A stretch of 64,000 nt of DNA from an uncultured Clostridia bacterium (lineage in GTDB: Bacteria > Bacillota > Clostridia > TANB77 > CAG-508). The translations under genes were made by a program, and so were the position numbers. Where the stretch lies: contig CAKPMJ010000002.1 of assembly GCA_934167965.1 (NCBI GenBank), forward strand, positions 90,907 through 154,906, read 5' to 3'. Positions 24,735 to 64,000 of this stretch are shown here, piece by piece. The notes beneath the pieces are model-generated. The model was not told where the DNA came from. It made no database searches and saw nothing but the letters and a program-made list of their open reading frames with translations. Position 1 is the stretch's first letter; every line of letters starts with the position of its first letter.

Positions 24735-25601
24735 TCAAAATATCATATTTCCCTTATCTCTTATCTTCATTCTGTATTCATTTATTTTATATCCACAAAA
24801 ATTTACTCCTTGTTTTCCTTTAAATATTTGTGTTTTTTTATTTAATTCTAACTGTAATTTTTCTTTTAAAAATTTTGTTATTTGCTCTAGTGCATTTTTT
24901 GCCTCCTGTTTTGTTTCTACAATTAATACACTGTCATCTAAATACCTCGCATAATATTTTATATGTAATTTATGTTTTACAAATTGGTCTATTTCATTTA
25001 AATAAATATTTCCAAACATTTGAGATGTATAATTTCCTATTTCTAATCCTTTTTTTCTGGACTGTGAATATAATATTTCTTTTATAAGCCATATTATTTT
25101 TTTGTCTTTTATTTTTCTTTCTATTATTTCTAATAATATTTTTTTATTTATATTATCGAAATATTTGGCTACATCCATTTTTAATATATAATAATTTTTC
25201 CATTTATTTTTTGCTTTTTTCATACATGATTGTACATACAATGCTGCTCTATGCATTCCCCTTCCTTTTAAACAAGCATAAGAATTACTTATAAACGTTG
25301 GTACAAATGCTGGTTCTAAAAAGTTATCTACTAACCATCTATGTACTATTCTGTCTATATACCTAGATTTTTCTATTTTTCTTATTTTAGGTTCTGTTAC
25401 ATAAAATACTGTATATCCTCCATGTTTATATGTCATATCTTTTAATTTTTTATATAAATACATTATATATTCTTCTTGTTTTAAATAAAAATTTATATTT
25501 TCTATTCTATATCCTTTTCCCTTTTTAGATTTTATGTGTGCATCCATTAATTTTTCATAACTTAATTTTTTGTCATATTCATTTCTTATTGTCTTTGGCA
25601 T
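24735..25601 (-). CDS. Diversity-generating retroelement (DGR) reverse transcriptase
   Basis: RVT_1 domain with YARYLDD (YxDD) and the DGR-specific motif-4 variant LEIGNYTSQMFGNIYLNEID (IGxxxSQ instead of QGxxxSP). No maturase or endonuclease domain; N-terminus ...EPKIRKI...DRIVHRWL is typical of bRT-like RTs. Confidence 0.8.
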   Translation of the reverse strand: MPKTIRNEYDKKLSYEKLMDAHIKSKKGKGYRIENINFYLKQEEYIMYLYKKLKDMTYKHGGYTVFYVTEPKIRKIEKSRYIDRIVHRWLVDNFLEPAFVPTFISNSYACLKGRGMHRAALYVQSCMKKAKNKWKNYYILKMDVAKYFDNINKKILLEIIERKIKDKKIIWLIKEILYSQSRKKGLEIGNYTSQMFGNIYLNEIDQFVKHKLHIKYYARYLDDSVLIVETKQEAKNALEQITKFLKEKLQLELNKKTQIFKGKQGVNFCGYKINEYRMKIRDKGNMIF

Positions 25602-25962
25602 AATATTTTAATAATCCCCCTATTATTTTTCCTATTTCATATATCTGTTCTATTGCAATATTAAATTTTTTATTATCTATCCATCTGTTTTTATACATTA
25701 TTCTTAAAAATATTCGTTGAGTATTAAGCTCTGCATCTATTGCATTTATTATATTTAGACAATCTTTTGTTTCTTGTATTTTGCTTATATATAATACATC
25801 TTTTATCATTTTGTACATACTTGTTTTATATTCTGTCCCTATACTGAACTTTTCTATTCTTGGTATTTTTATTATTAAATTAATCATATATTCTACGTAT
25901 TTTTCTGTTTTAGGTATTAATATTAATTTATTTTCTTTTTCCTTATTCAATCTATTCACCAA
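25579..25962 (-). CDS. Avd-like accessory variability determinant (four-helix-bundle protein, PF05635-like)
   Basis: 127-aa basic helical protein overlapping the RT start by 23 nt. It resembles the four-helix-bundle/23S-IVS protein family (…AELNTQ…EIGKIIGGLLKYY). Confidence 0.65.
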   Translation of the reverse strand: MVNRLNKEKENKLILIPKTEKYVEYMINLIIKIPRIEKFSIGTEYKTSMYKMIKDVLYISKIQETKDCLNIINAIDAELNTQRIFLRIMYKNRWIDNKKFNIAIEQIYEIGKIIGGLLKYYAKDNKK

Positions 25963-26161
25963 CTTCTATCTCTAAATATCTTTCTAATGCAATTTCATAA
26001 TTCGTTTTTTCTTTGTGAATATTTTTAAGACATTCACTACATTTTTTATTTAATAATACCGCATCTTCTCCTATTGCAATATAAAATGCACCACATGATA
26101 CTAATATTATTTCATTTATATATATTTCTTTTAGTTTTAATATCATTTCATAAAAATTCAT
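25952..26161 (-). CDS. Small hypothetical ORF (69 aa) between the DGR target and avd
   Basis: ORF only; overlaps the avd start; function unknown. Confidence 0.3.
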   Translation of the reverse strand: MNFYEMILKLKEIYINEIILVSCGAFYIAIGEDAVLLNKKCSECLKNIHKEKTNYEIALERYLEIEVGE

Positions 26162-26288
26162 CTTTTATCATTCCTTTCTTTCTAAAAAAGGTGATATGCT
26201 ATTTTTTTGAACAAAAAAATAGCACACCACGCTAGTGGTGCACCACGCTAATTGCATTCGCTAATTATTATTAGCTTCTAATTTCCTA

Positions 26289-26373
26289 TATTTTCATAGC
26301 AATAGCCTTTTCTAGGTTATCGCTTTTAGAGTTCAGACCTACTTTATATAAAGTGTGAGGCGAGTAGAATAGT
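26289..26373 (-). repeat. Conserved post-VR element (IMH-like GC-rich block CTCGCCTCACAC, stop codon, 3' UTR), copy 1. The other copy, with one mismatch, is at 55861..55945.
   Basis: Direct comparison of the two loci. Confidence 0.7.
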
Positions 26374-27589
26374 TGGTGCTAGTATAGAGTGGACCGTCGT
26401 CGCTGCGAAGGCTAGGTGAATTGCTAATGCCGTGAAAACCACCACTGTAAGTACGACTGTAAGTGCTGTACGCCTCTAATGTCCACTCTAAACTATTTCC
26501 CAATAAATCATATATATTATTTAACTTATCTGTTGATACTGTTCCTGTTTTTCGCGTTGTATTTCTACTTGTTTTTACTCCTTCTAAATTTTTTGGAGTA
26601 GTTGATGTTACATCTATTCCATTTCCTTGCATCCACATCATCATTTGATCATATTGACTTCCCCATATCATACTACTTCCTACTACATTTGTTAATTTAT
26701 TTTTTCCACTATATTCTTTATCTTTTTGATATAATCCATACCATGTATTTGCACTACTAGTTTGCGCTGTTGCTGAAGTTGCTCCTGATACTGATTGGGC
26801 ATTTTTGGATGTTTCATTTAAACTAGTTTCATATCTTCCTACATAAAATCCTTTATTTTTTCCTACATATTTTATCATCTCATCAAATTCATTTTGTAAT
26901 TGTGTTTTCCACTTAGTTAGTATTTCTTCATCTGTTCCATTTAATCCTACTATATTTTTTAATAATCCAATTCCTTTTGTATCATCTCCTGTTACAGCAT
27001 CTCCAATTGTTGGATTTGATAAATAATCTGGTTCTCTCCTTCCTGTCACACTTGTCAATGCCATTATTCCTGATGTTTCTGTCCAGTTTAATGCTGTATA
27101 TCCACCTGAAGTAAAATCATAAAGTTTTCCTAGTTTCTTTCCTTCTGCATTTGTACCATACATTTTACTTACATCTTTTACTGGTACCCATACAAATTCA
27201 CTATTATCTGGGGCTACTACTACTATTCCTTTTTTTACTTCTGTTGGTGAATCTTCTTTTATTTTAAATCCTACTGGCACTACTATAGTTTCTCCATTAT
27301 CATCTTGTAATTTTGCTTTTCTTCCTTCTATAATTTTATTTTTATTGTCTTTTACCTTTCCTAAATTTCCTGTACTTTCCTCCATTAAGATTTCTAGATC
27401 TGTTAAGTCTTCTGTTTCATTTGCTTGTGCTTGCTCTGTTTTTGTTTTAGCCTCTGCTGCCTTTTTTAATATTCCATTCTCTCCTGATAGCATTGCTATT
27501 GCTACTCCTGCTAATATCAATAACACTATTATTGTTATTACTAGTGCTATTAATGTTATACCTTTGCTGGTATTTAATCTTTTTGTCAT
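26339..27589 (-). CDS. DGR target protein 1: pilin-like N-terminal signal/anchor plus C-terminal FGE-sulfatase/CLec-fold domain carrying a variable region
   Basis: N-terminus KGITLIALVITIIVLLILAGVAIAMLSGENGIL (type IV pilin/pseudopilin-like class III signal). C-terminus FYVGRYETS...NTWYGLYQ...SSMIWGSQYDQMMMW...NIYDLLGNSLEWTLE...RGG (FGE-sulfatase/CLec motifs). Its 3' end is a VR relative to the paralog at 55911..57149. Confidence 0.8.
   Translation of the reverse strand: MTKRLNTSKGITLIALVITIIVLLILAGVAIAMLSGENGILKKAAEAKTKTEQAQANETEDLTDLEILMEESTGNLGKVKDNKNKIIEGRKAKLQDDNGETIVVPVGFKIKEDSPTEVKKGIVVVAPDNSEFVWVPVKDVSKMYGTNAEGKKLGKLYDFTSGGYTALNWTETSGIMALTSVTGRREPDYLSNPTIGDAVTGDDTKGIGLLKNIVGLNGTDEEILTKWKTQLQNEFDEMIKYVGKNKGFYVGRYETSLNETSKNAQSVSGATSATAQTSSANTWYGLYQKDKEYSGKNKLTNVVGSSMIWGSQYDQMMMWMQGNGIDVTSTTPKNLEGVKTSRNTTRKTGTVSTDKLNNIYDLLGNSLEWTLEAYSTYSRTYSGGFHGISNSPSLRSDDGPLYTSTNYSTRLTLYIK
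26374..26510 (-). other. DGR variable region VR1 at the 3' end of target 1
   Basis: Locally GC-richer segment. It aligns gap-free with 55946..56080 and differs at 32 of 98 core positions, while both flanks are identical. Confidence 0.75.
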
Positions 27590-28111: not shown

Positions 28112-29860
28112 TCATTTCTTTGCTAATATTTTTTCAAATTCTTTAAATCTTTTTACTTTTTGAGTAGTAGTCTTTTCAAGTGGCTCAGTTGTTATTATTA
28201 ATTCTTTTATTCTCTTAAATACTGGTAAGCTCTTATTTATTTCTTTTATATCTTCCCATACCAAGTTTTTATATTCTTTTTCTGTTTTATCGCCGAATTT
28301 TTCTTTTATAATTTCTGGATCATATACTAATTTTATTCCTAGACTAATTTCTCCTTTTGTATTTTCTCTTGGATATAATATACTTTCTGTAACATAAGGT
28401 AATTTATTTACTAAGAATTCAATGTCACTTGGAAATACATTTTCACCATTTTTTAATACTATCACATCTTTCTTTCTTCCAGATATAAATAAATATCCAT
28501 CTTTATTATAGTATCCTAAGTCTCCTGTATGGAACCATCCATCTTTCATAACACTTTCTGTTGCTTCTGGGTTCTCATAATATCCAAGCATAACATTAGG
28601 TCCTTTTACAACTATTTCTCCAACACCATTTTCATCAACATCTTCTAATTTTAATTCAACATTATATGGTGCCATTCCTACACTTCCTGGGCATTTTTGT
28701 TTATCTGTTTCAGCTGCAACTAATGGTGATGTTTCTGTTAAACCATATCCTTGAACTGTTTCTATACCAAAACTGTTGTATCCATCTATTACTTTTTTAT
28801 CCATTGCTGCTGCTCCAAAATATGCTATTCTTAAATTCCCTCCAAGTTGATCTAACACACTTTTAAATAATTTTCTTCTTACATCTATATGTAGTTTTAA
28901 TAATCCATTGGCTAATCCACTCATTGTATCAACTAGTTTTGCTTTTCCTTGATCTTCTATAGATTTTCTTATCTTTTTATATATTGTTTCTAATACTAAT
29001 GGTACAGCAACAAATACACTTACTTTATATTCTACTAAGTTCTTAGCAATATATTTTAATCCATCACAAAATGCTACTGTAACTCCACTATAAAATCCAT
29101 ATAAAAATGTTATTGTGCATTCAAATGTATGATGTAATGGTAAAAATGATAATAAGACATCATTATCATACATTTTAGACATCTTAGCCATAGCAATTAT
29201 ATTAGATGTAATATTTTTTTGTGATAACATTACACCTTTTGCCATGCTTGTTGTTCCTGATGTAAATATTAATATACTCATTTTATTGTTATCAATTTTC
29301 ACATCTGCATATCTATGGTCACCATCTTCTATTTTCTTCATTCCTTGTTCAACTAATTCTTTAAATGATAATATACCATTTTCCTCTTTTTTCAAGTCCA
29401 TATTTATATAGTATTTTATTGTTTCGTTTTCTTCTCTTATACTATTGAAAACTTCGTTATATTTATTTTCATATATAACAGCATCAACTTTACTTCTTTC
29501 AATTAGATTTTTTATTTCTTGTTCTGGTAATGCTTTATCTAATGGCACTACTACCATATTAGATGTTGTTATTGCAAAATAACTTTCACACCATTCATAT
29601 CTATTATTTCCTATTAATGCAATTTTTTTATTTTCCAATCCTAATTCAAGTAACATTGTTCCCAATGCTTCTACTTCTTTTTTTACCTCTGAATAAGTTT
29701 TTTCTATTACTTTTTGATTCTTCTTCCCTAAGTTTTCTTTAAACTTGTATGCTACATTATTTGGGTATGTTTCACAACTATGGTTTATTAACTCCCTAAA
29801 ATTATTAATTTCATAAACTTCATAAAGATTACTATTTAATTTTTTCATTTTTCCCTCCAT
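28112..29860 (-). CDS. AMP-dependent synthetase/ligase (long-chain acyl-CoA synthetase, FAA1-type)
   Basis: AMP-binding motifs (IFTSGTTSMAKGV; GYGLTETSP; TGDLGYYNKDGYLFISGRKKD; VKRFKEFEK). Confidence 0.85.
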   Translation of the reverse strand: MEGKMKKLNSNLYEVYEINNFRELINHSCETYPNNVAYKFKENLGKKNQKVIEKTYSEVKKEVEALGTMLLELGLENKKIALIGNNRYEWCESYFAITTSNMVVVPLDKALPEQEIKNLIERSKVDAVIYENKYNEVFNSIREENETIKYYINMDLKKEENGILSFKELVEQGMKKIEDGDHRYADVKIDNNKMSILIFTSGTTSMAKGVMLSQKNITSNIIAMAKMSKMYDNDVLLSFLPLHHTFECTITFLYGFYSGVTVAFCDGLKYIAKNLVEYKVSVFVAVPLVLETIYKKIRKSIEDQGKAKLVDTMSGLANGLLKLHIDVRRKLFKSVLDQLGGNLRIAYFGAAAMDKKVIDGYNSFGIETVQGYGLTETSPLVAAETDKQKCPGSVGMAPYNVELKLEDVDENGVGEIVVKGPNVMLGYYENPEATESVMKDGWFHTGDLGYYNKDGYLFISGRKKDVIVLKNGENVFPSDIEFLVNKLPYVTESILYPRENTKGEISLGIKLVYDPEIIKEKFGDKTEKEYKNLVWEDIKEINKSLPVFKRIKELIITTEPLEKTTTQKVKRFKEFEKILAKK

Positions 29861-39420: not shown

Positions 39421-40110
39421 TTAATTATTTTCTTGTATTTTATATTGGCTAATATCAGGCTCTACAAATATACTATCATCTACATTGTCAAATTCATAAT
39501 AATATTCTGCAACTATTGCTTCTTCTGTTCCATCTTCTTTTACCGAGTATCCATTATTTGCTTTTAATGTAAGACCTGTTTGCTTTTGTATATATGCATT
39601 ATCTGCTATTAATGATTGAACAAAGTAACACTCTTTTCCTTCATATTTTACAGTTTTTATTTTACTCATAGCAGCTAATTTAAATAAACTCCATAAATTA
39701 TTCTCATAATCAAATCCCATAATCATAATTTGAGATTGTACTTCATCCTTATTAGCACCTAGCATCGCTATTTTAGAATCTTCAACATCTATATAAGTAT
39801 TTACTGTGTCTCCTTTGGTATATTGCATTAACTTTCTATTTTTACCTGTGTCTTTTTCTTTTAAAGTATATATCATCAAAGCATTCTCATCTTTTAAATA
39901 AAACTCTGTCATACCTCCAGAATTATTTACAATTTTTTCATAATGATTATTACTATTTATGTACTTTGAAACTTTATTGTTTAAATCTCTAATTATAATC
40001 ATCTTCCTAATTGTTATTGCTAAAAAAATAATTATCGCAATTAATATAAATAATAAAATAATTTTCAATACTTTCTTTTTATTCATATAAATTCCTCCTT
40101 TTCTAAGCAA
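39421..40110 (-). CDS. Hypothetical membrane-anchored protein
   Basis: N-terminal TM; no recognisable domain. Confidence 0.5.
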   Translation of the reverse strand: MLRKGGIYMNKKKVLKIILLFILIAIIIFLAITIRKMIIIRDLNNKVSKYINSNNHYEKIVNNSGGMTEFYLKDENALMIYTLKEKDTGKNRKLMQYTKGDTVNTYIDVEDSKIAMLGANKDEVQSQIMIMGFDYENNLWSLFKLAAMSKIKTVKYEGKECYFVQSLIADNAYIQKQTGLTLKANNGYSVKEDGTEEAIVAEYYYEFDNVDDSIFVEPDISQYKIQENN

Positions 40111-40298
40111 CCTTGCAATTCTGAGCTATTATATAATCTTTAGACCATTGGCTTTTCGTCATAAACTTTCATTTACTTTGCTTTTTAACCTATTTCTATT
40201 ATACCATATTTTAGCTTTTTTTTGCAAATGAGAACTTTTCTATAATAAAAAAAGTGAATTTCTGTTAATACAGTTTTTCACTTTTTTCTTAATTTACT

Positions 40299-45563: not shown

Positions 45564-45613
45564 TAATACTATTTTGTGTTTTAATTGTCAATATTTTATT
45601 TGAATTTTTTTAA

Positions 45614-45642
45614 GTTGTCAAAAAGGAACGTCCCCATTGACA
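45614..45642. repeat. 29-nt palindromic motif, copy A: TTGTCAAAAAGGAACGTCCCCATTGACAA
   Basis: 7-nt inverted arms TTGTCAA/TTGACAA around a 15-nt asymmetric core. Other copies at 57180..57208 and 49616..49682; degenerate copy at ~50829..50851. Confidence 0.7.
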
Positions 45643-45861
45643 ATAAGTTTGTATCTCACCAATCCCTTTTTCTATGTATTGCCTAACTTCATTATTTTCA
45701 ATATTCATTTTTTTGTAAGCATCAAATATCAAATTATATATTTCTTGTTTTGACTTATTTTTAAATTTCTCATATATATTTTGTACATCATTCAAATCTA
45801 ATTTTAATTCTAAATAATCTCTACCTGCTAATATACATCCTATTGCCTGTACTAAAACAAT

Positions 45862-47834: not shown

Positions 47835-47895
47835 TTGATTTTTTTATAATTATGTGCTATATTATACCCATATAAATTTAACTTTGGAGGTTATT

Positions 47896-49617
47896 ATGAC
47901 TTTTTGTGAACAATTAAACAAATATATAGAACAAATCAACTGCTCTTCTCAAGAGCTAGTAACAGCTTCAGAACTTTCATCTACCGTTATTAGCCGTTAT
48001 CGTAAAGGTGATAGAACACCAAATATAAAAAGTAAACAATTAAAACAATTAGCAGATGGATTATACAAACTTAGCAATGAAAAAAATATCAATTTATCTA
48101 AAGATGAAATATATAATTCTTTAGCTAATACTTTAAATGATATTACTATTGATTTTGAGCAACTAAGCCAAAACTTTAATGAAATTATTTCAACACTAAA
48201 TATTAGCATTGCCGACTTGTCTCGTTTTATGGGATATGACTCTTCTTTTATTTCTAAAATTCGTACTGGAAGTAGAAATCCCTCAAAACCTCAAGACTTT
48301 ATAACATCAGTTTGCAATTTTATTGTAACAAAATATAACTCTGAAAGTGATAAAAAGACAATCTCTCTTCTTATTGGCTGTAAATTAGAAGACCTAAAAA
48401 ATGACTCAGCTTATCTTGAAAAACTAACTAATTGGTTTTCTACTAATTCGTCATTATCTAAAGTTGGTAATTTTTTAAATAACTTGAATGATTTTGATCT
48501 AAATGAATATATAAAAGCAATTCACTTTGATGAAATGAAAGTTCCTTTTGTTCCATTTTATAAATCTGGAACAAAAAATTATTATGGAATTGAGGAAATG
48601 AAAAAAGGTGAAATAGACTTTTTCAAAGCTACTGTCCTTTCTAAATCAAATGAACCTATTTTTATGTGTAGTGATATGCCAATGGAAGATATGGCTAAAG
48701 ATGTTGATTTTGGCAAAAAGTGGATGTTTGCCATTGCAATGACTTTAAAGAAAGGACTGCACTTAAATATAATTCATAACCTTGACCGACCATTTAATGA
48801 AATGATGCTTGGTCTAGAAAGTTGGATTCCTATTTATATGACAGGACAAGTTTCTCCTTATTACCTAAAAGGTATACAAAATTCAGTTTATTGTCACTTA
48901 AATTACGTGTCAGGTGTTGCTGCACTTACTGGAGAATGTATAAGTGGTTATCATAATAGTGGAAAATACTTTTTAACAAGCAATAAAGCAGATGTCTCAT
49001 ACTATCAAACTAAATCTAAAAATTTACTTAATATTGCTAAACCTCTTATGGAAATCTACAGATCAGAATCAAAAAATGCTTTTATAGCATTTATGTCTGC
49101 AAATGCTAAACTTAATGGAACACGTAGAAGAATCTTATCTTCTTTGCCAATTCAAACCATTTCAGATGAATTACTATTAAAAATTTTAAAACGAAATAAC
49201 GTAAATGATAATGATATAAAAAATATAATGGATTCTATAAAAGAACAAAAACAAATCATTCAAACAATACTAAAAAATAATACAATTGAAGATGAAATAT
49301 CAGAAATTTCTAAGGAAGATTTTGATAATTGTACTCCTACTCTTTCTCTTTCAAATTGTTTTTATGAAAATAAAGTTTATTATAATTATGAAGAATATTT
49401 AGAACATTTAAATTTAACTAAAGATTTTGAAAAAAGTAATAAAAATTATAAATTATCTACCAATTATAAACATACTTTTAGGAACATACAAATTCACATA
49501 TCTGAAAATAATTGGGTTATGATTTCTAAAGACAATTGCCCTTCTATACATTTTGTAATACAACATCCTAAACTTAGAGATGCAATTGAAAACTTTATTC
49601 CACCTGTAGTTGAATAA
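47896..49617 (+). CDS. Large transcriptional regulator with two N-terminal XRE-type HTH domains. Probable true start is ATG 47896; the ORF track starts it at 47854.
   Basis: RBS GGAGG at 47886-47890. Two HTH-like segments (QELVTASELSSTVISRYRKGDRTP and IADLSRFMGYDSSFISKIRTGSRNP) followed by ~450 aa of unknown domain. Confidence 0.6.
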   Translation: MTFCEQLNKYIEQINCSSQELVTASELSSTVISRYRKGDRTPNIKSKQLKQLADGLYKLSNEKNINLSKDEIYNSLANTLNDITIDFEQLSQNFNEIISTLNISIADLSRFMGYDSSFISKIRTGSRNPSKPQDFITSVCNFIVTKYNSESDKKTISLLIGCKLEDLKNDSAYLEKLTNWFSTNSSLSKVGNFLNNLNDFDLNEYIKAIHFDEMKVPFVPFYKSGTKNYYGIEEMKKGEIDFFKATVLSKSNEPIFMCSDMPMEDMAKDVDFGKKWMFAIAMTLKKGLHLNIIHNLDRPFNEMMLGLESWIPIYMTGQVSPYYLKGIQNSVYCHLNYVSGVAALTGECISGYHNSGKYFLTSNKADVSYYQTKSKNLLNIAKPLMEIYRSESKNAFIAFMSANAKLNGTRRRILSSLPIQTISDELLLKILKRNNVNDNDIKNIMDSIKEQKQIIQTILKNNTIEDEISEISKEDFDNCTPTLSLSNCFYENKVYYNYEEYLEHLNLTKDFEKSNKNYKLSTNYKHTFRNIQIHISENNWVMISKDNCPSIHFVIQHPKLRDAIENFIPPVVE

Positions 49618-49682
49618 GAGTGTCAAATGGGACGTTCCTTAATGACAATATATTGTCATTAAGGAACGTCCCATTTGACACT
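49616..49682. repeat. Perfect 67-nt palindrome made of two inverted copies of the 29-nt motif (GAGTGTCAAATGGGACGTTCCTTAATGACAATAT|ATATTGTCATTAAGGAACGTCCCATTTGACACTC)
   Basis: Read directly from the sequence; lies between convergent genes and may also act as a bidirectional terminator. Confidence 0.8.
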
Positions 49683-49690
49683 CTCTAACA

Positions 49691-50443
49691 TTAAATTCTA
49701 GTAGCCATAAGTATCTTTAATATTTTCTCCTTTGGGGTAAACACTTTATATTTAATAAAGTATTTCTGAATTGGATTGAAAAATGTATCTAATAACAAAA
49801 TATCTTTTATCCTAAATTTCACTCCTTTTCTTTCTAAATAGTCACATGTAAATAATTTACATCCTATACATTTAGCATCACATGTATAATTTTCCTTATT
49901 TAAATACTCACACAATACTAATTTTGTTAATGGTCCTAAACATTTTATTCTAAAATGGTGACAACATCCAGTTAATGATTTGGCATTTCTTTTTTCTCCA
50001 CATTTATTATTTTGAAAATCACACAGATTTTTTCCATAAAAGTGGCTGTCTAAATAGTTGCATACTGTATCATAAATATAATTGTATCTATTGTAACACT
50101 TATCATAAAAAATTGCATTTATACCATTAATAAAGTCTTTATGAAATATGTTGTTTTCATCATAATTTAATACATAGCCTATTATTATTTTATTATCTTC
50201 TTCTACACCTATCTTCACTTTTTGATGTAAAATCTTTGTTTTTACTTTAAGTAGTTTTCTTAACAACTTTTTATATTCTTTTTCATTAAATGTTCTAAAA
50301 TTTATTCTCAGTGTAAGTACACTTTTATTTTTTATTTCATTTGTACTAAAATTTATGATATCTATACTTCTTTCTTTGTTTTTTTCTTTATTATCCATAA
50401 TCTTCAAGTAATATTCATTATCTAGTTCTATATATTTTTCCAT
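49691..50443 (-). CDS. Hypothetical protein with a Cys-rich C-terminal half (CCHH..C..C..CxxC)
   Basis: ORF; no recognisable family; possible metal-binding protein. Confidence 0.45.
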   Translation of the reverse strand: MEKYIELDNEYYLKIMDNKEKNKERSIDIINFSTNEIKNKSVLTLRINFRTFNEKEYKKLLRKLLKVKTKILHQKVKIGVEEDNKIIIGYVLNYDENNIFHKDFINGINAIFYDKCYNRYNYIYDTVCNYLDSHFYGKNLCDFQNNKCGEKRNAKSLTGCCHHFRIKCLGPLTKLVLCEYLNKENYTCDAKCIGCKLFTCDYLERKGVKFRIKDILLLDTFFNPIQKYFIKYKVFTPKEKILKILMATRI

Positions 50444-52210: not shown

Positions 52211-53917
52211 TTATCCTTGTAATATTTTTTCCATCTCAACTTTTCTTTTTATTTTATGAGTTGTAGTCTTTTCAAACTCTTCATCTGTTATTAATAGATT
52301 TTTTATCCATTTATATTTTGGCATTGTTCTATTAACTACTTTTACTTCTTTCCATATAAGCTCTTTAATCTCATCTTCCGTAAGGTTTCCATATTTTTCT
52401 TGTATGTAATTTTTATCATATACAACCTTTACACTTACAGTTATGTCTTTATCCTTAAAATCTTCAGCACCATAAACCATTGATTCATCAACTAATGGAG
52501 AATTATTTAACAAAGTTTCTAGCTCTTCTGGATATACATTTTTTCCATTTGATAAAACAATAACAAATTTCTTTCTTCCTGAAATAAATATGTATCCATC
52601 TTTATCAATTTTTGCATAATCTCCTGTATGAAGCCATCCATCTTCTGTAAAAGCCTCTTTATTCGCTTCATCATCTCCAAAGTAACCTAGCATTACGCTA
52701 TCACCTTTTACAAGTAATTCGCCTACTCCTGTTTTTTCATCAACTTCATCTAATTTAACTTCTACACTTGGTAGTTTCTTTCCGATAGAGCCTATTCTTC
52801 TTTGATTTGTAAGCTCTGCTGCAATTACTGGTGATGTCTCTGTCAAACCATATCCTTGTAATAAATTAAATCCTAAGTCAAAAAATCCTTTTTCTACTTC
52901 TGGGCTTAAAGCTGCTCCTCCAGCAACCATAACCTTAATCTTTCCACCTAAGTTTTGATGAATATCTTTAAATAATCTTTTACGTACATCTATACCTACT
53001 TTAGATAAAATGTTGCTCATTTTTACTGCTGTTTTTACTGTTCCATCTTTACCTTTATCTTTTATTCCTTTTAGTAACTTTCCATACATTTTTTCATATA
53101 CAACTGGTACACAAATCATTGCAGTTATTCCAAATGTTTTCAATTCATCTGCAATATGTCTTACACCTTTAGAAAATACAATACTTGCTCCAATTGATAT
53201 TGGATATAAAAATCCTACTGTACATTCAAATGTATGATGTAATGGTAAAAATGATAATAATATATCTTCATCAGTAAGTTCAAAGGATTCTTGGATATCC
53301 ATAATATTAGTACATATATTTTTATGAGATAGCATTACTGCTTTTGATTTATTTGTTGTTCCTGATGTAAATAACATTATTCCCATTTCTTCGTTATTGA
53401 TTTCTGCATCTATAAATTCCTTATTTCCGCTATCTACTAATTCTTTTCCTTTTTCTAATATCTCTTTTAGAGAATATTTATCAAATACATGTTTTTCTAA
53501 ATCCATAGAAATAAAATATTTTAATTTTGAATCTCCCTTTTTTTGGATGTTTGCCATTGCCTCATCATATTTATTTGAATAGACTATAGCTTCAACTTCT
53601 GAACGCAAAATTAAACTTTCTATTTCATTTTCTGGTAATGCCTTATCTAAAGGTACAACTACACCAACTCCTGTAGCAATAGCAAGATATGCTAATTCCC
53701 ATTCATATCTGTTTTCACCTATTACAGCTATTCTTTTACCTTTTAAGCCCATTTCTATCATTGCAGTACCTAAATAATTTATTTCTTCTCTGAATTGTTT
53801 ATGTGTAATTTCTCTTACTCCAGATTTTTCTTGTAATAAATATGCTTTTTTGTCTCCATATTTTTCACCTGTCTGTTTTAACATATCTTTTAAATCTTTA
53901 AATTCCATAGTTCTCAT
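52211..53917 (-). CDS. AMP-dependent synthetase/ligase (long-chain acyl-CoA synthetase), paralog of 28112..29860
   Basis: LFTSGTTNKSKAV; GYGLTETSP; TGDYAKIDKDGYIFISGRKKF; C-terminal KIKRKVEMEK. Confidence 0.85.
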   Translation of the reverse strand: MRTMEFKDLKDMLKQTGEKYGDKKAYLLQEKSGVREITHKQFREEINYLGTAMIEMGLKGKRIAVIGENRYEWELAYLAIATGVGVVVPLDKALPENEIESLILRSEVEAIVYSNKYDEAMANIQKKGDSKLKYFISMDLEKHVFDKYSLKEILEKGKELVDSGNKEFIDAEINNEEMGIMLFTSGTTNKSKAVMLSHKNICTNIMDIQESFELTDEDILLSFLPLHHTFECTVGFLYPISIGASIVFSKGVRHIADELKTFGITAMICVPVVYEKMYGKLLKGIKDKGKDGTVKTAVKMSNILSKVGIDVRKRLFKDIHQNLGGKIKVMVAGGAALSPEVEKGFFDLGFNLLQGYGLTETSPVIAAELTNQRRIGSIGKKLPSVEVKLDEVDEKTGVGELLVKGDSVMLGYFGDDEANKEAFTEDGWLHTGDYAKIDKDGYIFISGRKKFVIVLSNGKNVYPEELETLLNNSPLVDESMVYGAEDFKDKDITVSVKVVYDKNYIQEKYGNLTEDEIKELIWKEVKVVNRTMPKYKWIKNLLITDEEFEKTTTHKIKRKVEMEKILQG

Positions 53918-55657: not shown

Positions 55658-55910
55658 ATTTTTTTTCCTCCTAGTATTTGTTCTTGCTTATTATATCATT
55701 TAGTTTTTTGTATTTCAAGTATTTTGTTAATAAATACTCCTGTATATATTTTTTTCATACTAATCTTGGTAAGCCTTTATTAACAAAAAAATTAGCCAAA
55801 ATCCTTAAATTTACTTTAAGAATTATTTGACTAATTTTTCCTTCTTTTATTAATTTTCTATATTTTCATAACAATAGCCTTTTCTAGGTTATCGCTTTTA
55901 GAGTTCAGAC

Positions 55911-57149
55911 CTACTTTATATAAAGTGTGAGGCGAGTAGAATAGTCGCTGCTAGTAAGGTACGGATGGTTGTTGGGGCGATTGCTAGGTGAAAAGCTAAG
56001 GCTGAAATAACCACCTCTGAGAGCACGACGGCTAGTGTAGTTCGCCTCTAATGTCCATTCATAACTATTTCCTAGTAAATCATATATATTGTTTAATTTA
56101 TCTGTTGAGACTGTTCCTGTTTTTCGTGTTGTATTTCTACTTGTTGTTACTCCTTCTAAATTTGTTGGAGTTTTTGATGTTACGTCTATTCCATTTTCTT
56201 GCATCCATATCATCATTTGATCATATTGACTTCCCCATATCATACTACTTCCTACTACATTTTTTATTTTATCTTGCCCACTATATTCTTTATCTTTTTG
56301 ATATAATCCATACCATGTATTTGCACTACTTGTTTCTGCTGTTGCCGATGCTACGCCAGATATTGATTGAGCATTTTTTGTTTCTGTGTTTAAACTTGTT
56401 TCATATCTTCCTACATAGAATCCTTTATTTTTTTCTACATATTTTATCATTTCATCAAATTCGTTTTGTAATTGTGTTTTCCATTTCGTTAGTATCTCTT
56501 CATCTGTTCCATTTAAACCTACTATACTTTTCAATAAAGCTATTCCTTTTGCATCATCCCCTGTTATTGCATCTCCATATGCTGTACTTGATAAATAGTC
56601 TGGCTCTCTGTAGTCTGTTGCACCTGTCCATTTCATAACTCCTGATGTCTCTGTCCAACTATTCGCTCTATATCCACTTGAAGTAAAGTTATAAAGTTTT
56701 CCTAGTTTCTTTTCTTCTGCATTTGTTCCATACATTTTACTTACATCTTTTACTGGCACCCATACAAATTCACTATTATCTGGTGCTACTACTACTATTC
56801 CTTTTTTTACTTCTGTCGGTGAATCTTCTTTTATTTTAAATCCTACTGGCACTACTATAGTTTCTCCATTGTCATCTTGTAATTTTACTTTTCTTCCTTC
56901 TATAACTTTATTTTTATTGTCTTTTACCTTTCCTAAGTTTCCTGTACTTTCTTCCATTAAAATTTCTAAATCTGTTAAGTCTTCTGTTTCATTTGTTTGT
57001 GCTTCTTCTGTTTTCATTTTAGCATCTGCAGCCTTCTTTAATATTCCATTTTCTCCTGATAGCATTGCTATTGCGACTCCTGCTAATATCAATAACACTA
57101 TTATTGTTATTACTAGTGCTATTAATGTTATTCCATTGTTTTTCTTCAT
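55911..57149 (-). CDS. DGR target protein 2 (paralog of 26339..27589) with a distinct C-terminal variable region
   Basis: Same pilin-like N-terminus (NGITLIALVITIIVLLILAGVAIAMLSGENGIL) and FGE/CLec domain. The C-terminal ~45 aa differ (…EANYTSRRALRGGYFSLSFSPSNRPNNHPYLTSSDYSTRLTLYIK). Confidence 0.8.
   Translation of the reverse strand: MKKNNGITLIALVITIIVLLILAGVAIAMLSGENGILKKAADAKMKTEEAQTNETEDLTDLEILMEESTGNLGKVKDNKNKVIEGRKVKLQDDNGETIVVPVGFKIKEDSPTEVKKGIVVVAPDNSEFVWVPVKDVSKMYGTNAEEKKLGKLYNFTSSGYRANSWTETSGVMKWTGATDYREPDYLSSTAYGDAITGDDAKGIALLKSIVGLNGTDEEILTKWKTQLQNEFDEMIKYVEKNKGFYVGRYETSLNTETKNAQSISGVASATAETSSANTWYGLYQKDKEYSGQDKIKNVVGSSMIWGSQYDQMMIWMQENGIDVTSKTPTNLEGVTTSRNTTRKTGTVSTDKLNNIYDLLGNSYEWTLEANYTSRRALRGGYFSLSFSPSNRPNNHPYLTSSDYSTRLTLYIK
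55946..56080 (-). other. DGR variable region VR2
   Basis: See VR1; mismatches are confined to this block. Confidence 0.75.
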
Positions 57150-57179
57150 ATTATTTCTTCCTTTCTTTATTTTTTATTA

Positions 57180-57208
57180 TTGTCAAAAATGAACGTCCCC
57201 ATTGACAA
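57180..57208. repeat. 29-nt palindromic motif, copy B (TTGTCAAAAATGAACGTCCCCATTGACAA), 30 nt upstream of the target-2 start codon
   Basis: 27/29 identical to copy A. Confidence 0.7.
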
Positions 57209-57324
57209 CTTTAATGCACCATAAAAAGACAATATAAACTTATCCAGTATCATAATACTTACCAGATAAGCCAATATTGCCTTTTTCACTATATATCTTA
57301 TTATTTATTTTTACTAAACTAATT

Positions 57325-57344
57325 GTGTGTGTGTGTGTGTGTGT
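57325..57344. repeat. (GT)10 dinucleotide microsatellite
   Basis: Read directly: GTGTGTGTGTGTGTGTGTGT, ~175 nt upstream of DGR target 2, between divergent genes. Confidence 0.9.
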
Positions 57345-57645
57345 ACAGCCTCAACGGTTCTAGCTTTTTTCATCTTTTACACCAACTTTCTACTTTATTC
57401 TTTTTATATTTTACTAAAACATCATTTTCTTGTAAATACTTTTTGCCAATTTATTTAAAAATTTGTATAATTTATAGTACACTAAAATTATAACTAACAT
57501 TAATTAATAAAATTCTGCAAAAATGTTTCAAAATTTTTCCAATAAATACATCTATAAATTATTGCAATTTCAATGATTTTGTAATATAATAGTTCTATAT
57601 AAATTTCATAAAATCATTATAAATTTTTTAGGAGGATGAAATTAT

Positions 57646-58875: not shown

Positions 58876-59235
58876 ATGACTATGGCAGTTATAAGACCAT
58901 GCGCAGATTTAAGAAATAAATATAATGAAATCTCTAAAATTTGCCACCAAACTCAAAAACCTATATATATTACTAAAAACGGTACAAATGATCTGGTAGT
59001 TTTAAGTGATGAGGCTTATGAGGAAATCGTAAAATCAACACAAGAAAAAGTTGAAGAAAAAATTAAAAAACTTATTTCTAAACAATTTGATAAACATTAT
59101 AATGATTTTGAGCAATTTAAAAAAGACATTTTCAGGAAAATTGAACAATCCATTAAAGAAATAGAAAATGGTAATTGTATACCTATGGAAAACATCGTTG
59201 CAGAAATGGAGGAAATCTATGACTCCACTAAATAA
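58876..59235 (+). CDS. Phd/YefM-family type II antitoxin (with a longer C-terminal helical extension)
   Basis: N-terminus RNKYNEISKICHQTQKPIYITKNGTNDLVVLSDEAYEEI matches the Phd/YefM fold. Confidence 0.7.
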   Translation: MTMAVIRPCADLRNKYNEISKICHQTQKPIYITKNGTNDLVVLSDEAYEEIVKSTQEKVEEKIKKLISKQFDKHYNDFEQFKKDIFRKIEQSIKEIENGNCIPMENIVAEMEEIYDSTK

Positions 59236-59515
59236 ATACCAAATCTCTTGGTCTCCTCAAGCTTATAAAGATCTTAAGGAAATATATAATTATATTTCGA
59301 ATACTTTAAAAGAAAAAAACATAGCCAAAAAAATTACTAGTAAACTTTTAAAATCAATATTAAACTTGAGTTATCTACCAGAAAGATATCCAAAAATTTC
59401 AAATTTTAATGATAATAGCAAGAACATTCGAAAAATGCTGGTAGATAACTACATAATTATTTATGAAATTCATAATTTTACTCGGAAAAGTATTTATATT
59501 AAATATATTTCATAG
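59219..59515 (+). CDS. RelE/ParE-family type II toxin
   Basis: Start ATG 59219 with RBS GGAGG; overlaps the antitoxin by 17 nt; YQISWSPQAYKDLKEI...IRKMLVDNYIIIYEI pattern. Confidence 0.65.
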   Translation: MTPLNKYQISWSPQAYKDLKEIYNYISNTLKEKNIAKKITSKLLKSILNLSYLPERYPKISNFNDNSKNIRKMLVDNYIIIYEIHNFTRKSIYIKYIS

Positions 59516-62600: not shown

Positions 62601-64000
62601 CTCTGTATTTTTTTCCTTCATAATCTACTACTACTGATTTATTTGGTACCATCAATCCTGTTATATGTGATACTTTTACATCAAACTCGAATTTATCACC
62701 CACATATGCATAATCTTTATTCATCATAATTTCATAAGTGTAATTTTTTAATTCATAGTTTTGTATAGTAAGTTGTCTATTTGCTATTGATGTATTTTTA
62801 TAATATAAAGATATGTGGCTGTAATCTTCTTCTGTATCCATATGGTTTTTAAGTTCTATTTTATAAGTAAATACTCCATTTTCATCTACTGTTACTTTCT
62901 GTTTACCCTCTTTATTTAGTTCAACATAGAATTCATCTTCTATTTTATCATAGAATAATTGCCTTGGTATAAATCCCCATACATTTATTGTATCTGTGTT
63001 TTTATAAAGAGGTCTATCTGTATAAATGTAAGCACTTGGATAATTTGATAATTCATAATTATATAATCCAACTACCAATTTTTGATCTTCATTTCCTATT
63101 TTTAAATATTTTATATTTTCAGATCCATCTAAAATATCATCAAATTTTGCAATACCATCATTATCTGTCTTTTCTTCTTTATCTAAATAATTTACTTTTA
63201 TATTTTTAGCTAAATTATCTCCTTCAGCTACCCATGCAAGAACATCTCTTTCTGTTTCTATTGCATAAGCTGATAATTTATTTATTTGTATAGGACAATT
63301 AAATATCTCTTTTCCTTTTGATGTTTTTACTATTGCTACATAATATCCTGTTTGTAAAGTCTTGTTTAGTTGTAAATAGTTTTTGCTAAATGATATTTTA
63401 TAATCTCCTAAACTTTTAGACTTACTAAAATCTTTTGTCTCTATGTATTCTATAAACTCATCAGCTGTATTAAATTGTTTTACTTCAACTTTAGACATTT
63501 TTATATCACTATTTACATATTCATTATATTCATAATAAATCTTTACTTCTTCATTTGGTTTATATGTGCTTACTCCATCCATTGAAACTGATCTATATTC
63601 ATACTTATCTGAAATATTATTTTCTTCATCTATTATAAAATTAAATATATAATCATTTTCTAAAGTTTCATCTCCGGCTTTTATTCCTTTGTTTATTTTA
63701 ACTACATATTTCTGACCTTTTGTTAGTTTCTTTTTAGGTGTAAATCTCCATATTTTACCTAAATGTTCCCACTTTCCATCAACTTTTGGTGATATACTAA
63801 CATTTTTCTTAATACTCTCTATATCTGCATAAGAAAATTTTAATTCTATTGTAGTATTTGGAGTTACTGTTTCTGCTCCATTATCTGGATAAGTGCTTAC
63901 AACACTCAATTTATTTGATGTTTGATAAGCCCAACTATCCTGTGTTATTTGGTCTTTTACATATTGTAATTTTACTATAGTATTATCTGGAATATTTTGT
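59656..64000 (-). CDS. Very large secreted alpha-2-macroglobulin-like protein (MG/Ig-like domain repeats; no CxEQ thioester motif seen). Probably 5'-partial: the frame is open to the window edge.
   Basis: >1417 aa. Big_5/SbsA-like Ig segment near the N-terminus (SVVSTYPDNGAETVTPNTTIELKFS). MG-domain-like LPDNVTTYTVTAHS (LPDxxTtWrv pattern). Confidence 0.5.
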   Translation of the reverse strand, partial: QNIPDNTIVKLQYVKDQITQDSWAYQTSNKLSVVSTYPDNGAETVTPNTTIELKFSYADIESIKKNVSISPKVDGKWEHLGKIWRFTPKKKLTKGQKYVVKINKGIKAGDETLENDYIFNFIIDEENNISDKYEYRSVSMDGVSTYKPNEEVKIYYEYNEYVNSDIKMSKVEVKQFNTADEFIEYIETKDFSKSKSLGDYKISFSKNYLQLNKTLQTGYYVAIVKTSKGKEIFNCPIQINKLSAYAIETERDVLAWVAEGDNLAKNIKVNYLDKEEKTDNDGIAKFDDILDGSENIKYLKIGNEDQKLVVGLYNYELSNYPSAYIYTDRPLYKNTDTINVWGFIPRQLFYDKIEDEFYVELNKEGKQKVTVDENGVFTYKIELKNHMDTEEDYSHISLYYKNTSIANRQLTIQNYELKNYTYEIMMNKDYAYVGDKFEFDVKVSHITGLMVPNKSVVVDYEGKKYRATTNKNGIAHFSFKVKKEKYDRYLAYQSVAVYNGDVEEYVDTESEDYFTICALSRDVDTQTETKDKKCKITLNKLIKDKDVMTGEDRTKLYDGKYDTNIKIKIVEETRERKIAEYRYNEYTKEKEPVYEYEDKDSKTLYSEELKTNNGTAEFDTTKVQYKKDTEDITYNYQIEFEYKDRQGRKIEEIEYIYIGQEHENRTLGYSYFSDIIWDGYFSEAINTEAYYIYRYFLKNETYKFSIGDTANFTLAESTENGIKDINNDGKLLKIVLKEDITTTGIITNNDIKHTFTDKDFPGCKMTSAYFVNGKFYRMPVYYFDFKEEDRKVDIEITADKEQYKPGDKVTLTVKTTNKNKPIKTTVNVSVVNKAIFELREDETNILERIYEDRLYPVYNYSTYNDYLQGTMGGAGGGDGQLRGKFGDTACFETVNTDAKGIATVTFTLPDNVTTYTVTAHSANKDLYVGVGKKDIVSKLDFFVQFTEPRNIKTTDDVVLNATSVAEQNYKVDYEFTIKELNKTLKTTANTNSIATVNFGKLKYGTYTVTIKGKHDNLNDGVEYKFNVVESTQEVKDKKTLSINNNAEIKPSKNPIVLEVYNKNMEQYLKYIEFIESTNTDRLDTKIAYNKVQEIKNKYYNEKNTINYIDIEKYQGDNYLKNLENGKEDIVLSALTSYYAIDYFNRDKLTEKEQLSKDANIFEYYLLAAANKESVLLDLLYLKDEKDISNYDKLLVTLSLEFTGDFQNAKELYKQIKLTDKEKKEYKSIIAIIDTFINKKDAAKKINELIKKNPSDEYLRFAILSFFENNSEDISKNEDVKIVSKNLNETLTVNGMEVKTYTINNEDLDTIKFETESNDLMVSYYYQTSLDNIENKNISKDMKIKLNGTLKKGNNVTLEVTCNSTFEGVLRIALPNSLRLAEGKYDYNKYYLVNNRIDYITMYKTKKCKKLYIPLIVAYEGKYKFENIVSNVDGKYHISNSLDLKISK

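What the first reader, a model, noticed from the sequence alone, without database searches (positions are those of the whole stretch)
55911..57149. Second, remote DGR target paralog ~30 kb from the RT cassette
A 412-aa paralog of the cassette-linked target sits 28 kb away with a different VR but identical IMH-like and 3' elements. DGRs acting in trans on remote targets are known but uncommon. With one RT and two targets carrying identical recognition elements, one TR would diversify two surface proteins.
Basis: seen in the sequence. Interest (0 to 1): 0.65.

Follow-up and report, generated by a model that had tools for sequence, protein, structure and literature searches.

The report
Remote target of a decayed DGR
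The second gene copy is real and carries the marks of a hypermutation system (a diversity-generating retroelement, DGR), but the local machinery has lost its template and part of its enzyme, so both variable regions now look frozen.

Summary
ORF 55911-57149 (-) encodes a 412-aa paralog of the cassette-linked target at 26339-27589 (83% aa identity). DNA identity is 90% in the gene body, 68% in the last ~100 nt, and 100% over a 74-nt block covering the end of the variable region (VR), the stop codon and a 3' hairpin.

It is a DGR-type target. The predicted fold matches the DGR variable proteins Mtd, TvpA and TaqVP. Of 32 VR1/VR2 differences, 27 fall where a relative's template repeat (TR) has adenine.

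The proposed mechanism, one RT and one TR diversifying two proteins, is not supported for this genome:
- The RT is cut at residue ~285 (288 aa, against 336-337 aa in over 100 homologs).
- The MutS-like accessory ORF is shortened.
- In every relative examined the TR lies just 3' of the RT. Here the TR and its conserved flanking elements are missing from the window and from the 15 kb of scaffold read beyond its target-2 end.
- Neither VR shows a VR-only variant in public assemblies.
- A third paralog just outside the window has a frameshifted VR.

Best reading: a non-adjacent target of a decayed DGR. An intact DGR elsewhere in the genome acting in trans is not excluded. This is a known kind of system, of modest interest.

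The parts
55911..57149 (-). Target 2: 412-aa pilin-like protein. It has an N-terminal hydrophobic helix with a weak prepilin N-methylation motif and a C-terminal CLec/FGE-fold domain ending in the VR.
   Evidence: ORF. 83% aa identity to target 1. Pfam N_methyl E=0.002, below the curated cut-off. AlphaFold2 pLDDT 90.9. Foldseek hits to Mtd 1yu0/1yu4, TvpA 2y3c, TaqVP 5vf4 and FGE.
55924..56046 (-). VR2: 123 nt homologous to the TRs of relatives. Variable positions are 55946-56042. G+C is 51%, against 31% in the gene body.
   Evidence: 32 differences from VR1; 27 lie where the L001 TR has A (Fisher p=2.5e-9) and 30 of 32 are at codon positions 1 or 2.
55872..55945 (-). 74-nt block identical to 26300-26373. 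It holds the invariant 3' end of the VR with the G+C-rich core CGCCTCACAC (IMH-like), the last codons, the stop and the 3' UTR.
   Evidence: The same block is conserved in other paralogs (L017, L019, L029, L043).
55870..55896 (-). Candidate 3' hairpin AGCGATAACC-TAGAAAA-GGCTATTGTT, about 15 nt after the stop codon.
   Evidence: Predicted in all four copies folded, but weak (z -0.3 to -2.8). Sequence conserved among paralogs.
26339..27589 (-). Target 1: the cassette-linked 416-aa paralog.
26352..26474 (-). VR1.
26300..26373 (-). Copy of the identical 74-nt IMH-like/stop/3' block at target 1. Hairpin at 26298-26324.
25952..26161 (-). Shortened MutS-like (MSL) accessory ORF: 69 aa, against 117-145 aa in relatives. 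Only the first ~45 residues align.
   Evidence: Pfam MutS_I E=8.7e-5. Alignments. 132 aa in L042.
25579..25962 (-). Avd accessory gene, 127 aa.
   Evidence: PF22296 bAvd E=8e-17. NF033474 DivGenRetAVD E=9e-19, below its curated cut-off.
24735..25601 (-). DGR-type reverse transcriptase, truncated: 288 aa against 336-337 aa. IGNYTSQ and YLDD motifs are present; the C-terminal ~50 residues, including the conserved AGHLGYIKYAN motif, are missing.
   Evidence: RVT_1 E=2e-19. Homolog lengths. Alignment.
24735..24750 (-). Deletion or rearrangement breakpoint. Homology to intact cassettes stops at about 24745. Relatives continue with the RT 3' end, the TR, a conserved RNA-like element and an 82-aa ORF; the window continues with unrelated sequence leading to a 57-aa ORF and rpmE.
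   Evidence: The same junction is present on 13 contigs from several samples.

Best explanation
Target 2 is a genuine non-adjacent DGR target. It is one of at least three paralogous pilin-like CLec-fold surface proteins on this chromosome.

Its C-terminal VR was written in the past by mutagenic retrohoming: error-prone cDNA copied from a TR, with template adenines randomised, replaced the VR, guided by the shared G+C-rich IMH-like block and perhaps the 3' hairpin. VR1 and VR2 came from the same type of TR.

In this lineage the cassette has since decayed. A deletion removed the last ~50 codons of the RT, the TR, its conserved flanking RNA element and a downstream 82-aa ORF. The MutS-like accessory gene is also shortened.

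With no template and a crippled RT nearby, the VRs are now fixed alleles.

Shown: the paralogy, the fold, the adenine-site bias, the truncations, the absence of a TR from the window, and the invariance of the VRs in public assemblies.

Inferred: that the truncated RT is inactive, that no intact DGR exists elsewhere in the genome, and the pilin-like surface localisation.
For: - Fold: AlphaFold2 model at pLDDT 90.9, with Foldseek hits to the DGR variable proteins Mtd, TvpA and TaqVP.
- Adenine bias: 27 of 32 VR1/VR2 differences lie at adenine positions of the TR of a relative whose RT is 94% identical (p=2.5e-9); 30 of 32 are at codon positions 1 or 2.
- Shared origin: VR1 and VR2 share 8 non-adenine differences from that TR, so both were last written from another, common TR type.
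- RT length: 288 aa against 336-337 aa in almost all of the 120 listed homologs.
- Canonical layout: in the six relatives whose sequence downstream of the RT was read, the TR lies directly 3' of a full-length RT, between conserved flanks.
- Break: window homology stops at about 24745.
- No TR in the window: fixed-position scan best 51/103, against 103/103 for the VRs themselves; adenine-tolerant Smith-Waterman background at most 42, against 284 for self; both TR flank motifs absent at up to 3 mismatches. None in the 15 kb of scaffold read beyond the window end.
- The truncated RT is real: the exact 288-aa protein occurs on 13 contigs from several samples.
- VR1 is unchanged on two contigs retrieved through the RT rather than through the target (L011, L012).
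- Targets 1 and 2 are singleton 90% clusters, seen on 4 and 8 contigs. The next relative of target 2 is only 85% identical, so no VR-only variants exist among about 15 billion proteins.
- In sister paralog clusters, members differ at 1-4 residues (one by a 6-residue deletion), always outside the VR.
- The third paralog has a +1 frameshift inside its VR that has not been overwritten.
Against: - Only about 80 kb of a 372-kb scaffold, from a larger genome, was inspected. A second intact DGR could exist elsewhere.
- The 74-nt 3' block is 100% identical between copies whose bodies differ by 10%. That implies recent function or continuing selection on the recognition elements.
- Related contigs carry A-type and B-type VRs side by side (L017), so lineages with two TRs probably exist.
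- Metagenome assemblies report consensus sequence, so low-frequency VR variants within samples would be missed.
- The retrievals through the exact target proteins are biased towards identical VRs.
- L028 shows a different allele at what appears to be the target 2 locus.
- The cognate TR was never found, so the adenine bias rests on related TRs, not the cognate one.
Confidence: 0.68

Rival explanations
1. The system is alive in trans. An intact DGR elsewhere in the same genome (full-length RT, Avd and a TR of the right type) supplies mutagenised cDNA that homes into VR1, VR2 and the other paralogs through their shared IMH-like block. The truncated cassette in the window is then just a dead duplicate.
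For: The 3' recognition block is perfectly conserved despite 10% body divergence. Paralogs at other loci have no RT within 6-10 kb, so trans action is or was the norm in this family. An RT that is 94% identical, with a TR, exists in a different gene context (L001) and could be a second cassette of the same species. About 10% of DGR-bearing genomes have several DGRs, and remote targets are documented (PMC5758913).
Against: VR1 and VR2 keep 8 shared non-adenine differences from the only close TR found (L001), so that TR has not rewritten them. No VR-only variants of any close paralog appear in public data. The frameshift in the third paralog's VR persists across several clusters of 387-aa proteins. 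L001 comes from samples other than those that yielded the window lineage.
Confidence: 0.2
2. Variation in this family now comes mainly from gene conversion or allele swapping among the paralogous loci, as in pilin antigenic variation. The old DGR-written VRs would serve as a stored repertoire.
For: L028 has flanks with 0 differences over 4.4 kb, yet its target gene differs at 135 positions across body and VR and is 99% identical to the paralog at another locus. P0139 combines a different body with a C-terminal third identical to target 1. P0130 and P0250 share body and VR but have the N-termini of different locus types. P0133 and P0135 show the same pattern.
Against: Every one of these mosaics could be a chimeric metagenome contig joined across repeats longer than the assembler's k-mer: a 74-nt exact block within about 1.3-1.6 kb repeats of 87-90% identity. 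L028 ends inside the gene. No long-read or isolate evidence is available.
Confidence: 0.1
3. There is no DGR involvement. The two genes are ordinary paralogs whose C-termini diverged by point mutation under diversifying selection, or the second copy is an assembly artefact.
For: No cognate TR could be shown.
Against: Differences are concentrated at positions that are adenine in related TRs (p=2.5e-9) and at codon positions 1 or 2. The VR has 51% G+C in a 27% G+C genome. An Avd and a DGR-type RT sit next to target 1. The fold is CLec. The copies differ by 11% and recur with distinct flanks in independent assemblies.
Confidence: 0.02

Closest known systems
DGRs with non-adjacent or remote target genes (Treponema denticola TvpA family; 45 of 372 curated DGRs in Wu et al. 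2018, PMC5758913)
   Same: Paralogous CLec-fold targets are scattered away from the RT. Each ends in a VR followed by the same recognition sequence, and all derive from one TR type.
   Different: Here the RT is truncated and no TR is present, so the trans relationship is historical or depends on an element not seen. Membership as a target of a functioning DGR could not be shown.
MSL-containing DGR architecture (Architecture D of Wu et al. 2018): target - MSL - avd - RT - TR
   Same: The gene order target - MutS-like - Avd - RT is identical to that of relatives L025 and L042, which carry the TR after the RT.
   Different: In the window the MSL is 69 aa instead of 117-145 aa, the RT is 288 aa instead of 336-337 aa, and the TR plus its 3' conserved element are deleted.
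Bordetella phage BPP-1 Mtd/IMH paradigm (Guo et al. 2011, PMC3240598)
   Same: A G+C-rich block is shared by VR and TR, followed by sequence that differs between VR (TTTATATAAAG) and TR (CTAATACAAAT), as with IMH and IMH*. A hairpin lies 3' of the VR. The fold is CLec.
   Different: The hairpin is weak, A/T-rich and about 30 nt from the G+C block. No function was tested. The target is a cellular pilin-like protein, not a phage tail fibre.
Pilus-associated DGR targets (Bacteroides type V pilus adhesins, bioRxiv 10.1101/2024.11.15.621889; rare 'GspG-type pilin' VR-bearing domains, PMC11661182)
   Same: The diversified ligand-binding domain is attached to a pilus-type anchoring module.
   Different: Here the N-terminus resembles a type IV (class III signal) pilin and lacks the usual Glu5. 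The match to the Pfam motif is below threshold.

Membership tests
DGR target gene (variable protein) | VR at the C-terminal end of a C-type-lectin/FGE-type fold | tested here: met
   Model pLDDT 90.9. Foldseek PDB hits to Mtd 1yu0/1yu4, TvpA 2y3c, TaqVP 5vf4 and FGE, E 2.5e-4 to 1.3e-3. The VR occupies residues ~370-403 of 412.
DGR target gene (variable protein) | A cognate TR in the same genome that differs from the VR only at TR adenines | tested here: not met
   No TR in the window or in L043. Against a related TR (L001), 22-23 of 49 adenine positions differ, but so do 9-13 of 74 non-adenine positions. The rest of the genome could not be searched.
DGR target gene (variable protein) | Differences between VR copies concentrated at TR-adenine positions and at codon positions 1 and 2 of AAY codons | tested here: met
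   27 of 32 differences at adenine positions of the L001 TR, Fisher p=2.5e-9; 30 of 32 at codon positions 1 or 2.
DGR target gene (variable protein) | Conserved IMH-type element at the 3' end of the VR and a nearby hairpin | tested here: inconclusive
   The 74-nt block is identical in both copies and conserved in other paralogs. The G+C core CGCCTCACACT is shared with relatives' TRs and followed by VR-specific versus TR-specific sequence. The hairpin prediction is weak. Function was not tested.
Functional DGR cassette | Full-length DGR-clade reverse transcriptase | tested here: not met
   The IGNYTSQ and YLDD motifs are present, but the protein stops at 288 aa. Homologs are 336-337 aa with a conserved C-terminal region.
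Functional DGR cassette | Accessory protein Avd | tested here: met
   PF22296 at 62 bits, above the cut-off of 40. NF033474 at 67.7 bits, below its cut-off of 80.
Functional DGR cassette | TR adjacent to the RT with its flanking RNA elements | tested here: not met
   Present in L001, L023, L025, L026 and 12 metagenome loci. Absent from the window.
Functional DGR cassette | Ongoing diversification of the VR in populations | tested here: not met
   Identical VRs on all contigs of this lineage, including two found through the RT. Both targets are singleton clusters. Variation in sister clusters lies only outside the VR. The test uses consensus assemblies, not reads.
Type IV pilin-like protein | Class III signal peptide / N-terminal methylation motif followed by a hydrophobic alpha-1 helix | tested here: inconclusive
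   Pfam N_methyl at 18 bits, below the cut-off of 21.2. Weak profile hits to geopilin and MshA N-termini, E 0.07-0.3. The model has long N-terminal helices at residues 6-31 and 36-69. Position +5 is Ala, not Glu.

The most novel reading that the evidence does not exclude
After losing its TR and RT, this Clostridia lineage may keep a repertoire of at least 3-5 DGR-written, pilin-like CLec genes. It could shuffle them between loci by gene conversion, which would be a hand-over from retroelement-driven to recombination-driven surface variation. Alternatively, the perfectly conserved 3' block means the orphan targets are still serviced in trans by an unseen DGR.
Probability: 0.15. Interest if true: 0.6.

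Novelty: new member of a known kind. Interest (0 to 1): 0.3.

Why it matters
Non-adjacent DGR targets are under-counted because metagenome surveys only look next to the RT (PMC8144416), so each verified case helps. This case is also a caution: an RT, an Avd and VR-like paralogs together do not make a working DGR. The RT length and the presence of a TR must be checked. The locus is a dated snapshot of DGR decay, with frozen VRs, a frameshifted VR and cassette remnants. It also adds a type IV-pilin-like anchoring module to the list of DGR-diversified proteins in gut Clostridia. None of this changes current understanding of how DGRs work.

Tried and rejected
- TR search in the window, four ways, all negative: exact or 3-mismatch patterns, a fixed-position scan, adenine-tolerant local alignment and TR-flank motifs.
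- One scan of species-representative genomes with a VR/TR pattern gave only two loci, neither from the window's species. The organism could not be named and the rest of its genome could not be searched.
- A scan of metagenome contigs with the conserved TR 3' flank gave 12 TRs, none cognate for VR1 or VR2.
- Sequence search against PDB chains found only weak pilin N-terminus hits. The fold search was needed to show the CLec fold.
- Rfam found no known RNA in the target leaders or 3' regions.
- A possible link to the TANB77 'pilin-like' proteins (PMC11680825) was dropped. Those proteins are 143-236 aa, and nothing ties them to this family.
- L028 was first read as evidence that VR2 varies between strains. 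That reading was set aside because the differences span the whole gene and match a paralog at another locus, so gene conversion or a chimeric contig explains it better than DGR activity.

Full report
**Observation**

ORF 55911-57149 (-) encodes 412 aa. It aligns over its whole length with the 416-aa ORF 26339-27589 (-) at 83% aa identity. A self-comparison of the window shows one long repeat, 55851-57138 = 26279-27566, at 88.9% identity.

The divergence is uneven:
- gene body: 89.8% identity (111 mismatches in 1088 nt; 46 codons differ synonymously, 45 non-synonymously)
- variable stretch of 101 nt: 68% identity
- last 35 coding nt: 100% identity

The exact run is 74 nt long, 26373->26300 = 55945->55872. 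It extends 39 nt past the stop codon and is followed by one mismatch and 13 more identical nt. The VR-like stretch has 50-51% G+C, against 31% in the gene body and 27% in the window.

The 'assembly duplicate' way out is excluded, because both copies recur with their own flanks in independent assemblies.

**What the protein is**

The N-terminus, KGITLIALVITIIVLLILAGVAIAML, resembles a prepilin N-methylation signal. The match is below Pfam's threshold, and there are weak profile hits to pilin N-termini.

An AlphaFold2 model built on 50 homologs is confident (pLDDT 90.9). Its best structural matches in the PDB are the DGR variable proteins Mtd (1yu0, 1yu4), TvpA (2y3c) and TaqVP (5vf4), together with the formylglycine-generating-enzyme family. 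This is the C-type-lectin/FGE fold typical of DGR targets.

In an alignment of 22 close homologs the scaffold residues are constant, and residues ~370-403 are hypervariable.

**The cassette**

Next to target 1, on the minus strand, lie:
- a 69-aa ORF with a MutS domain I match (25952-26161)
- an Avd (25579-25962; PF22296; NF033474 below its cut-off)
- an RVT_1 reverse transcriptase (24735-25601)

The RT carries the DGR-type IGNYTSQ and YLDD motifs, but it is only 288 aa. Almost all of the 120 homologs listed are 336-337 aa, including one at 94% identity. They share a conserved C-terminal segment (...KRKLKKKV...AGHLGYIKYAN...) that the window protein lacks.

**Where the TR should be**

In the closest relative (L001) the TR lies 20 nt after the RT stop and aligns with both window VRs. 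The same layout holds in L023, L025, L026 and L042. In those relatives and in 12 further metagenome TRs, the TR sits between two strongly conserved flanks, TAGGGATAAATCGAAAGG on the 5' side and CACTCTAATACAA...ATACAGTAAAAGTATTAGTATTAAAGAG on the 3' side. In five relatives an 82-95-aa ORF follows the TR.

Homology between the window and L001 stops at about window 24745, inside the RT 3' end. What follows in the window is unrelated sequence leading to a 57-aa ORF and rpmE.

No TR is present anywhere in the window:
- pattern searches at up to 3 mismatches find only the two VRs
- a fixed-position scan gives at most 51/103, against 103/103 for the VRs
- adenine-tolerant local alignment gives at most 42, against 284 for self
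- both TR flank motifs are absent
- the 82-aa ORF is absent

The exact 288-aa RT with this junction occurs on 13 contigs from several samples and assemblers. The truncation is therefore a property of the lineage, not an assembly error.

The MSL ORF is also shortened: 69 aa against 117-145 aa, with only the first ~45 residues alignable.

**Were the VRs written by a DGR?**

Yes, on indirect evidence. VR1 and VR2 differ at 32 of 123 aligned positions. Of these, 27 are adenines in the L001 TR (Fisher p=2.5e-9), and 30 of 32 are at codon positions 1 or 2.

Against that TR, both VRs also show 9-13 non-adenine mismatches, 8 of which they share with each other and with a further paralog (L017_416). 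A neighbouring paralog (L017_412) fits the L001 TR with only 4 such mismatches.

So VR1 and VR2 were last written from a common TR type that is related to, but distinct from, the one recovered. That TR was not found in any collection searched.

The VR/TR boundary looks like an IMH/IMH* pair. CGCCTCACACT is common to VRs and TRs. It is followed by TTATATAAAG in VRs and CTAATACAAAT in TRs.

A hairpin, AGCGATAACC-TAGAAAA-GGCTATTGCT, is predicted about 15 nt after the stop in every copy, but it is energetically weak.

**Is diversification going on?**

The available population evidence says no.
- The window is 100% identical to scaffold_10 (371,860 bp) of ENA assembly ERZ28614304.
- The exact target 2 protein is on 8 contigs. 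These include strains whose flanking genes differ by 1-2%, yet they show no difference at all between 55575 and 57338. Amino-acid identity is by construction in this look-up; nucleotide identity is not.
- VR1 is identical on two contigs retrieved through the RT rather than through the target (L011, L012).
- Both targets are singleton clusters at 90% identity among about 15 billion proteins. The next relative of target 2 is only 85% identical. VR-only variants would be about 95% identical, so they do not exist in the data.
- In the clusters of sister paralogs, members differ at 1-4 residues (one by a 6-residue deletion), always outside the VR, while the VRs are identical.

A third paralog lies on the same scaffold about 5.5 kb beyond the window end (L043:10001-11164). 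It has a +1 frameshift inside its VR that truncates it to 387 aa. It is followed by a ~57-nt remnant of the MSL gene, which marks a second decayed cassette. Active retrohoming would be expected to overwrite such a frameshift.

**Counter-evidence and limits**

- Only about 80 kb of the scaffold was read, and the species was not found among the representative genomes. An intact DGR elsewhere in the genome cannot be excluded.
- The perfect conservation of the 74-nt 3' block, in copies whose bodies differ by 10%, argues that the recognition elements were in use until recently or still are.
- Further paralogs without a nearby RT occur in the same samples: one at a locus next to Zip and dockerin-like genes (L019, L029) and one next to gyrB (L017). 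Action in trans was evidently normal in this family.
- One contig found through the exact DnaB-like neighbour (L028) carries a different allele at the target 2 position. Its differences span the whole gene, and it is 99% identical to the paralog of another locus. This points to gene conversion or a chimeric contig across the shared repeat, not to DGR activity. I could not decide between those two.

**Comparison with what is known**

- Non-adjacent and remote DGR targets are documented: 45 of 372 curated DGRs have them, with up to seven in Treponema (PMC5758913).
- The MSL accessory gene and the avd-RT-TR order are described architectures.
- Metagenome surveys state that they miss such targets (PMC8144416).
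- Pilus-linked targets are known for Bacteroides type V pili. 'GspG-type pilin' VR-bearing domains are only 'scarcely represented' in one survey (PMC11661182).

This is therefore a new member of a known kind. Two mildly unusual points are the pilin-like anchor and the clear state of decay.

**Verdict**

The paralog and its identical 3' elements are real and DGR-derived. The proposed present-day mechanism is not supported by the window, because the linked cassette lacks a TR and a complete RT and the VRs look frozen.

| Reading | Confidence |
|---|---|
| Decayed DGR with fossil targets | about 0.68 |
| Trans-acting intact DGR elsewhere | about 0.2 |

Interest: 0.3.

Noticed in passing
L043:10001-11164 (same scaffold, about 5.5 kb beyond window position 64000): A third paralog (387 aa) whose VR carries a +1 frameshift and a premature stop. 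It is followed by a ~57-nt remnant of the MSL gene, which marks a second, more decayed cassette. Truncated 387-aa versions occur in several clusters.
   Followed up: partly
window 57324-57343 (-), within the leader 57150-57420: A (CA)10 dinucleotide tract lies inside a mini-ORF (MKKARTVEAVHTHTHTHN) about 175 nt upstream of target 2. Strains differ here by a 6-nt indel (57339-57344). A paralog leader (L029) has a long (GA)n tract at the same place. This is a possible phase-variable or leader-peptide element.
   Followed up: no
L028:1-1000 versus window 55871-56713: A contig whose flank is identical to the window for 4.4 kb, but whose target gene is a different allele across body and VR and is 99% identical to the paralog of another locus (L029). 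This is either gene conversion between paralog loci or a chimeric assembly. Similar mosaics are P0139, P0133/P0135 and P0130/P0250.
   Followed up: partly
L001:1449-1697, L042:9372-9620, L023:2313-2564, L025:3341-3628, L026:1815-2069: A conserved 82-95-aa ORF (MNICFL.GKI...YNE.ADYCY...) directly follows the TR in all five relatives. It has no Pfam hit on record. It may be an undescribed accessory gene of this DGR clade. It is absent from the window.
   Followed up: partly
L001:1280-1345 and 15 other loci: The ~70 nt 3' of the TR (CACTCTAATACAA..TTTCAGATTATATATTT.AAGGAATATATACAGTAAAAGTATTAGTATTAAAGAG) are nearly invariant across TRs whose template sequences differ widely. This is probably the structured part of the DGR RNA used for priming.
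   Followed up: no
window 40103-40191 (-): A c-di-GMP-I riboswitch (Rfam RF01051, 45 bits against a gathering score of 35) lies upstream of the ORF ending at 39421.
   Followed up: no
window 28112-29860 (-) and 52211-53917 (-): Paralogous AMP-binding (acyl-CoA synthetase-like) genes, 72-79% nt identity, lie next to target 1 and near target 2 respectively. This suggests an older, larger segmental duplication.
   Followed up: no
window 57169-57208 and 45604-45643: A 41-nt repeat (90% identity) contains the palindrome TTGTCAA-N16-TTGACAA. It sits just upstream of target 2 and of a GntR-family regulator gene. It may be a shared operator or promoter element.
   Followed up: no
window 49617-49684: A perfect 68-nt palindrome lies between the convergent ORFs 47854-49617 (+) and 49691-50443 (-). 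It is probably a bidirectional terminator.
   Followed up: no
window 58876-59515 (+): Two overlapping ORFs at 58876-59235 and 59168-59515, between sigK and the large 1417-aa ORF. The matching genes in L004 carry Pfam hits to PhdYeFM antitoxin (weak) and ParE toxin, so this is probably a toxin-antitoxin pair.
   Followed up: no
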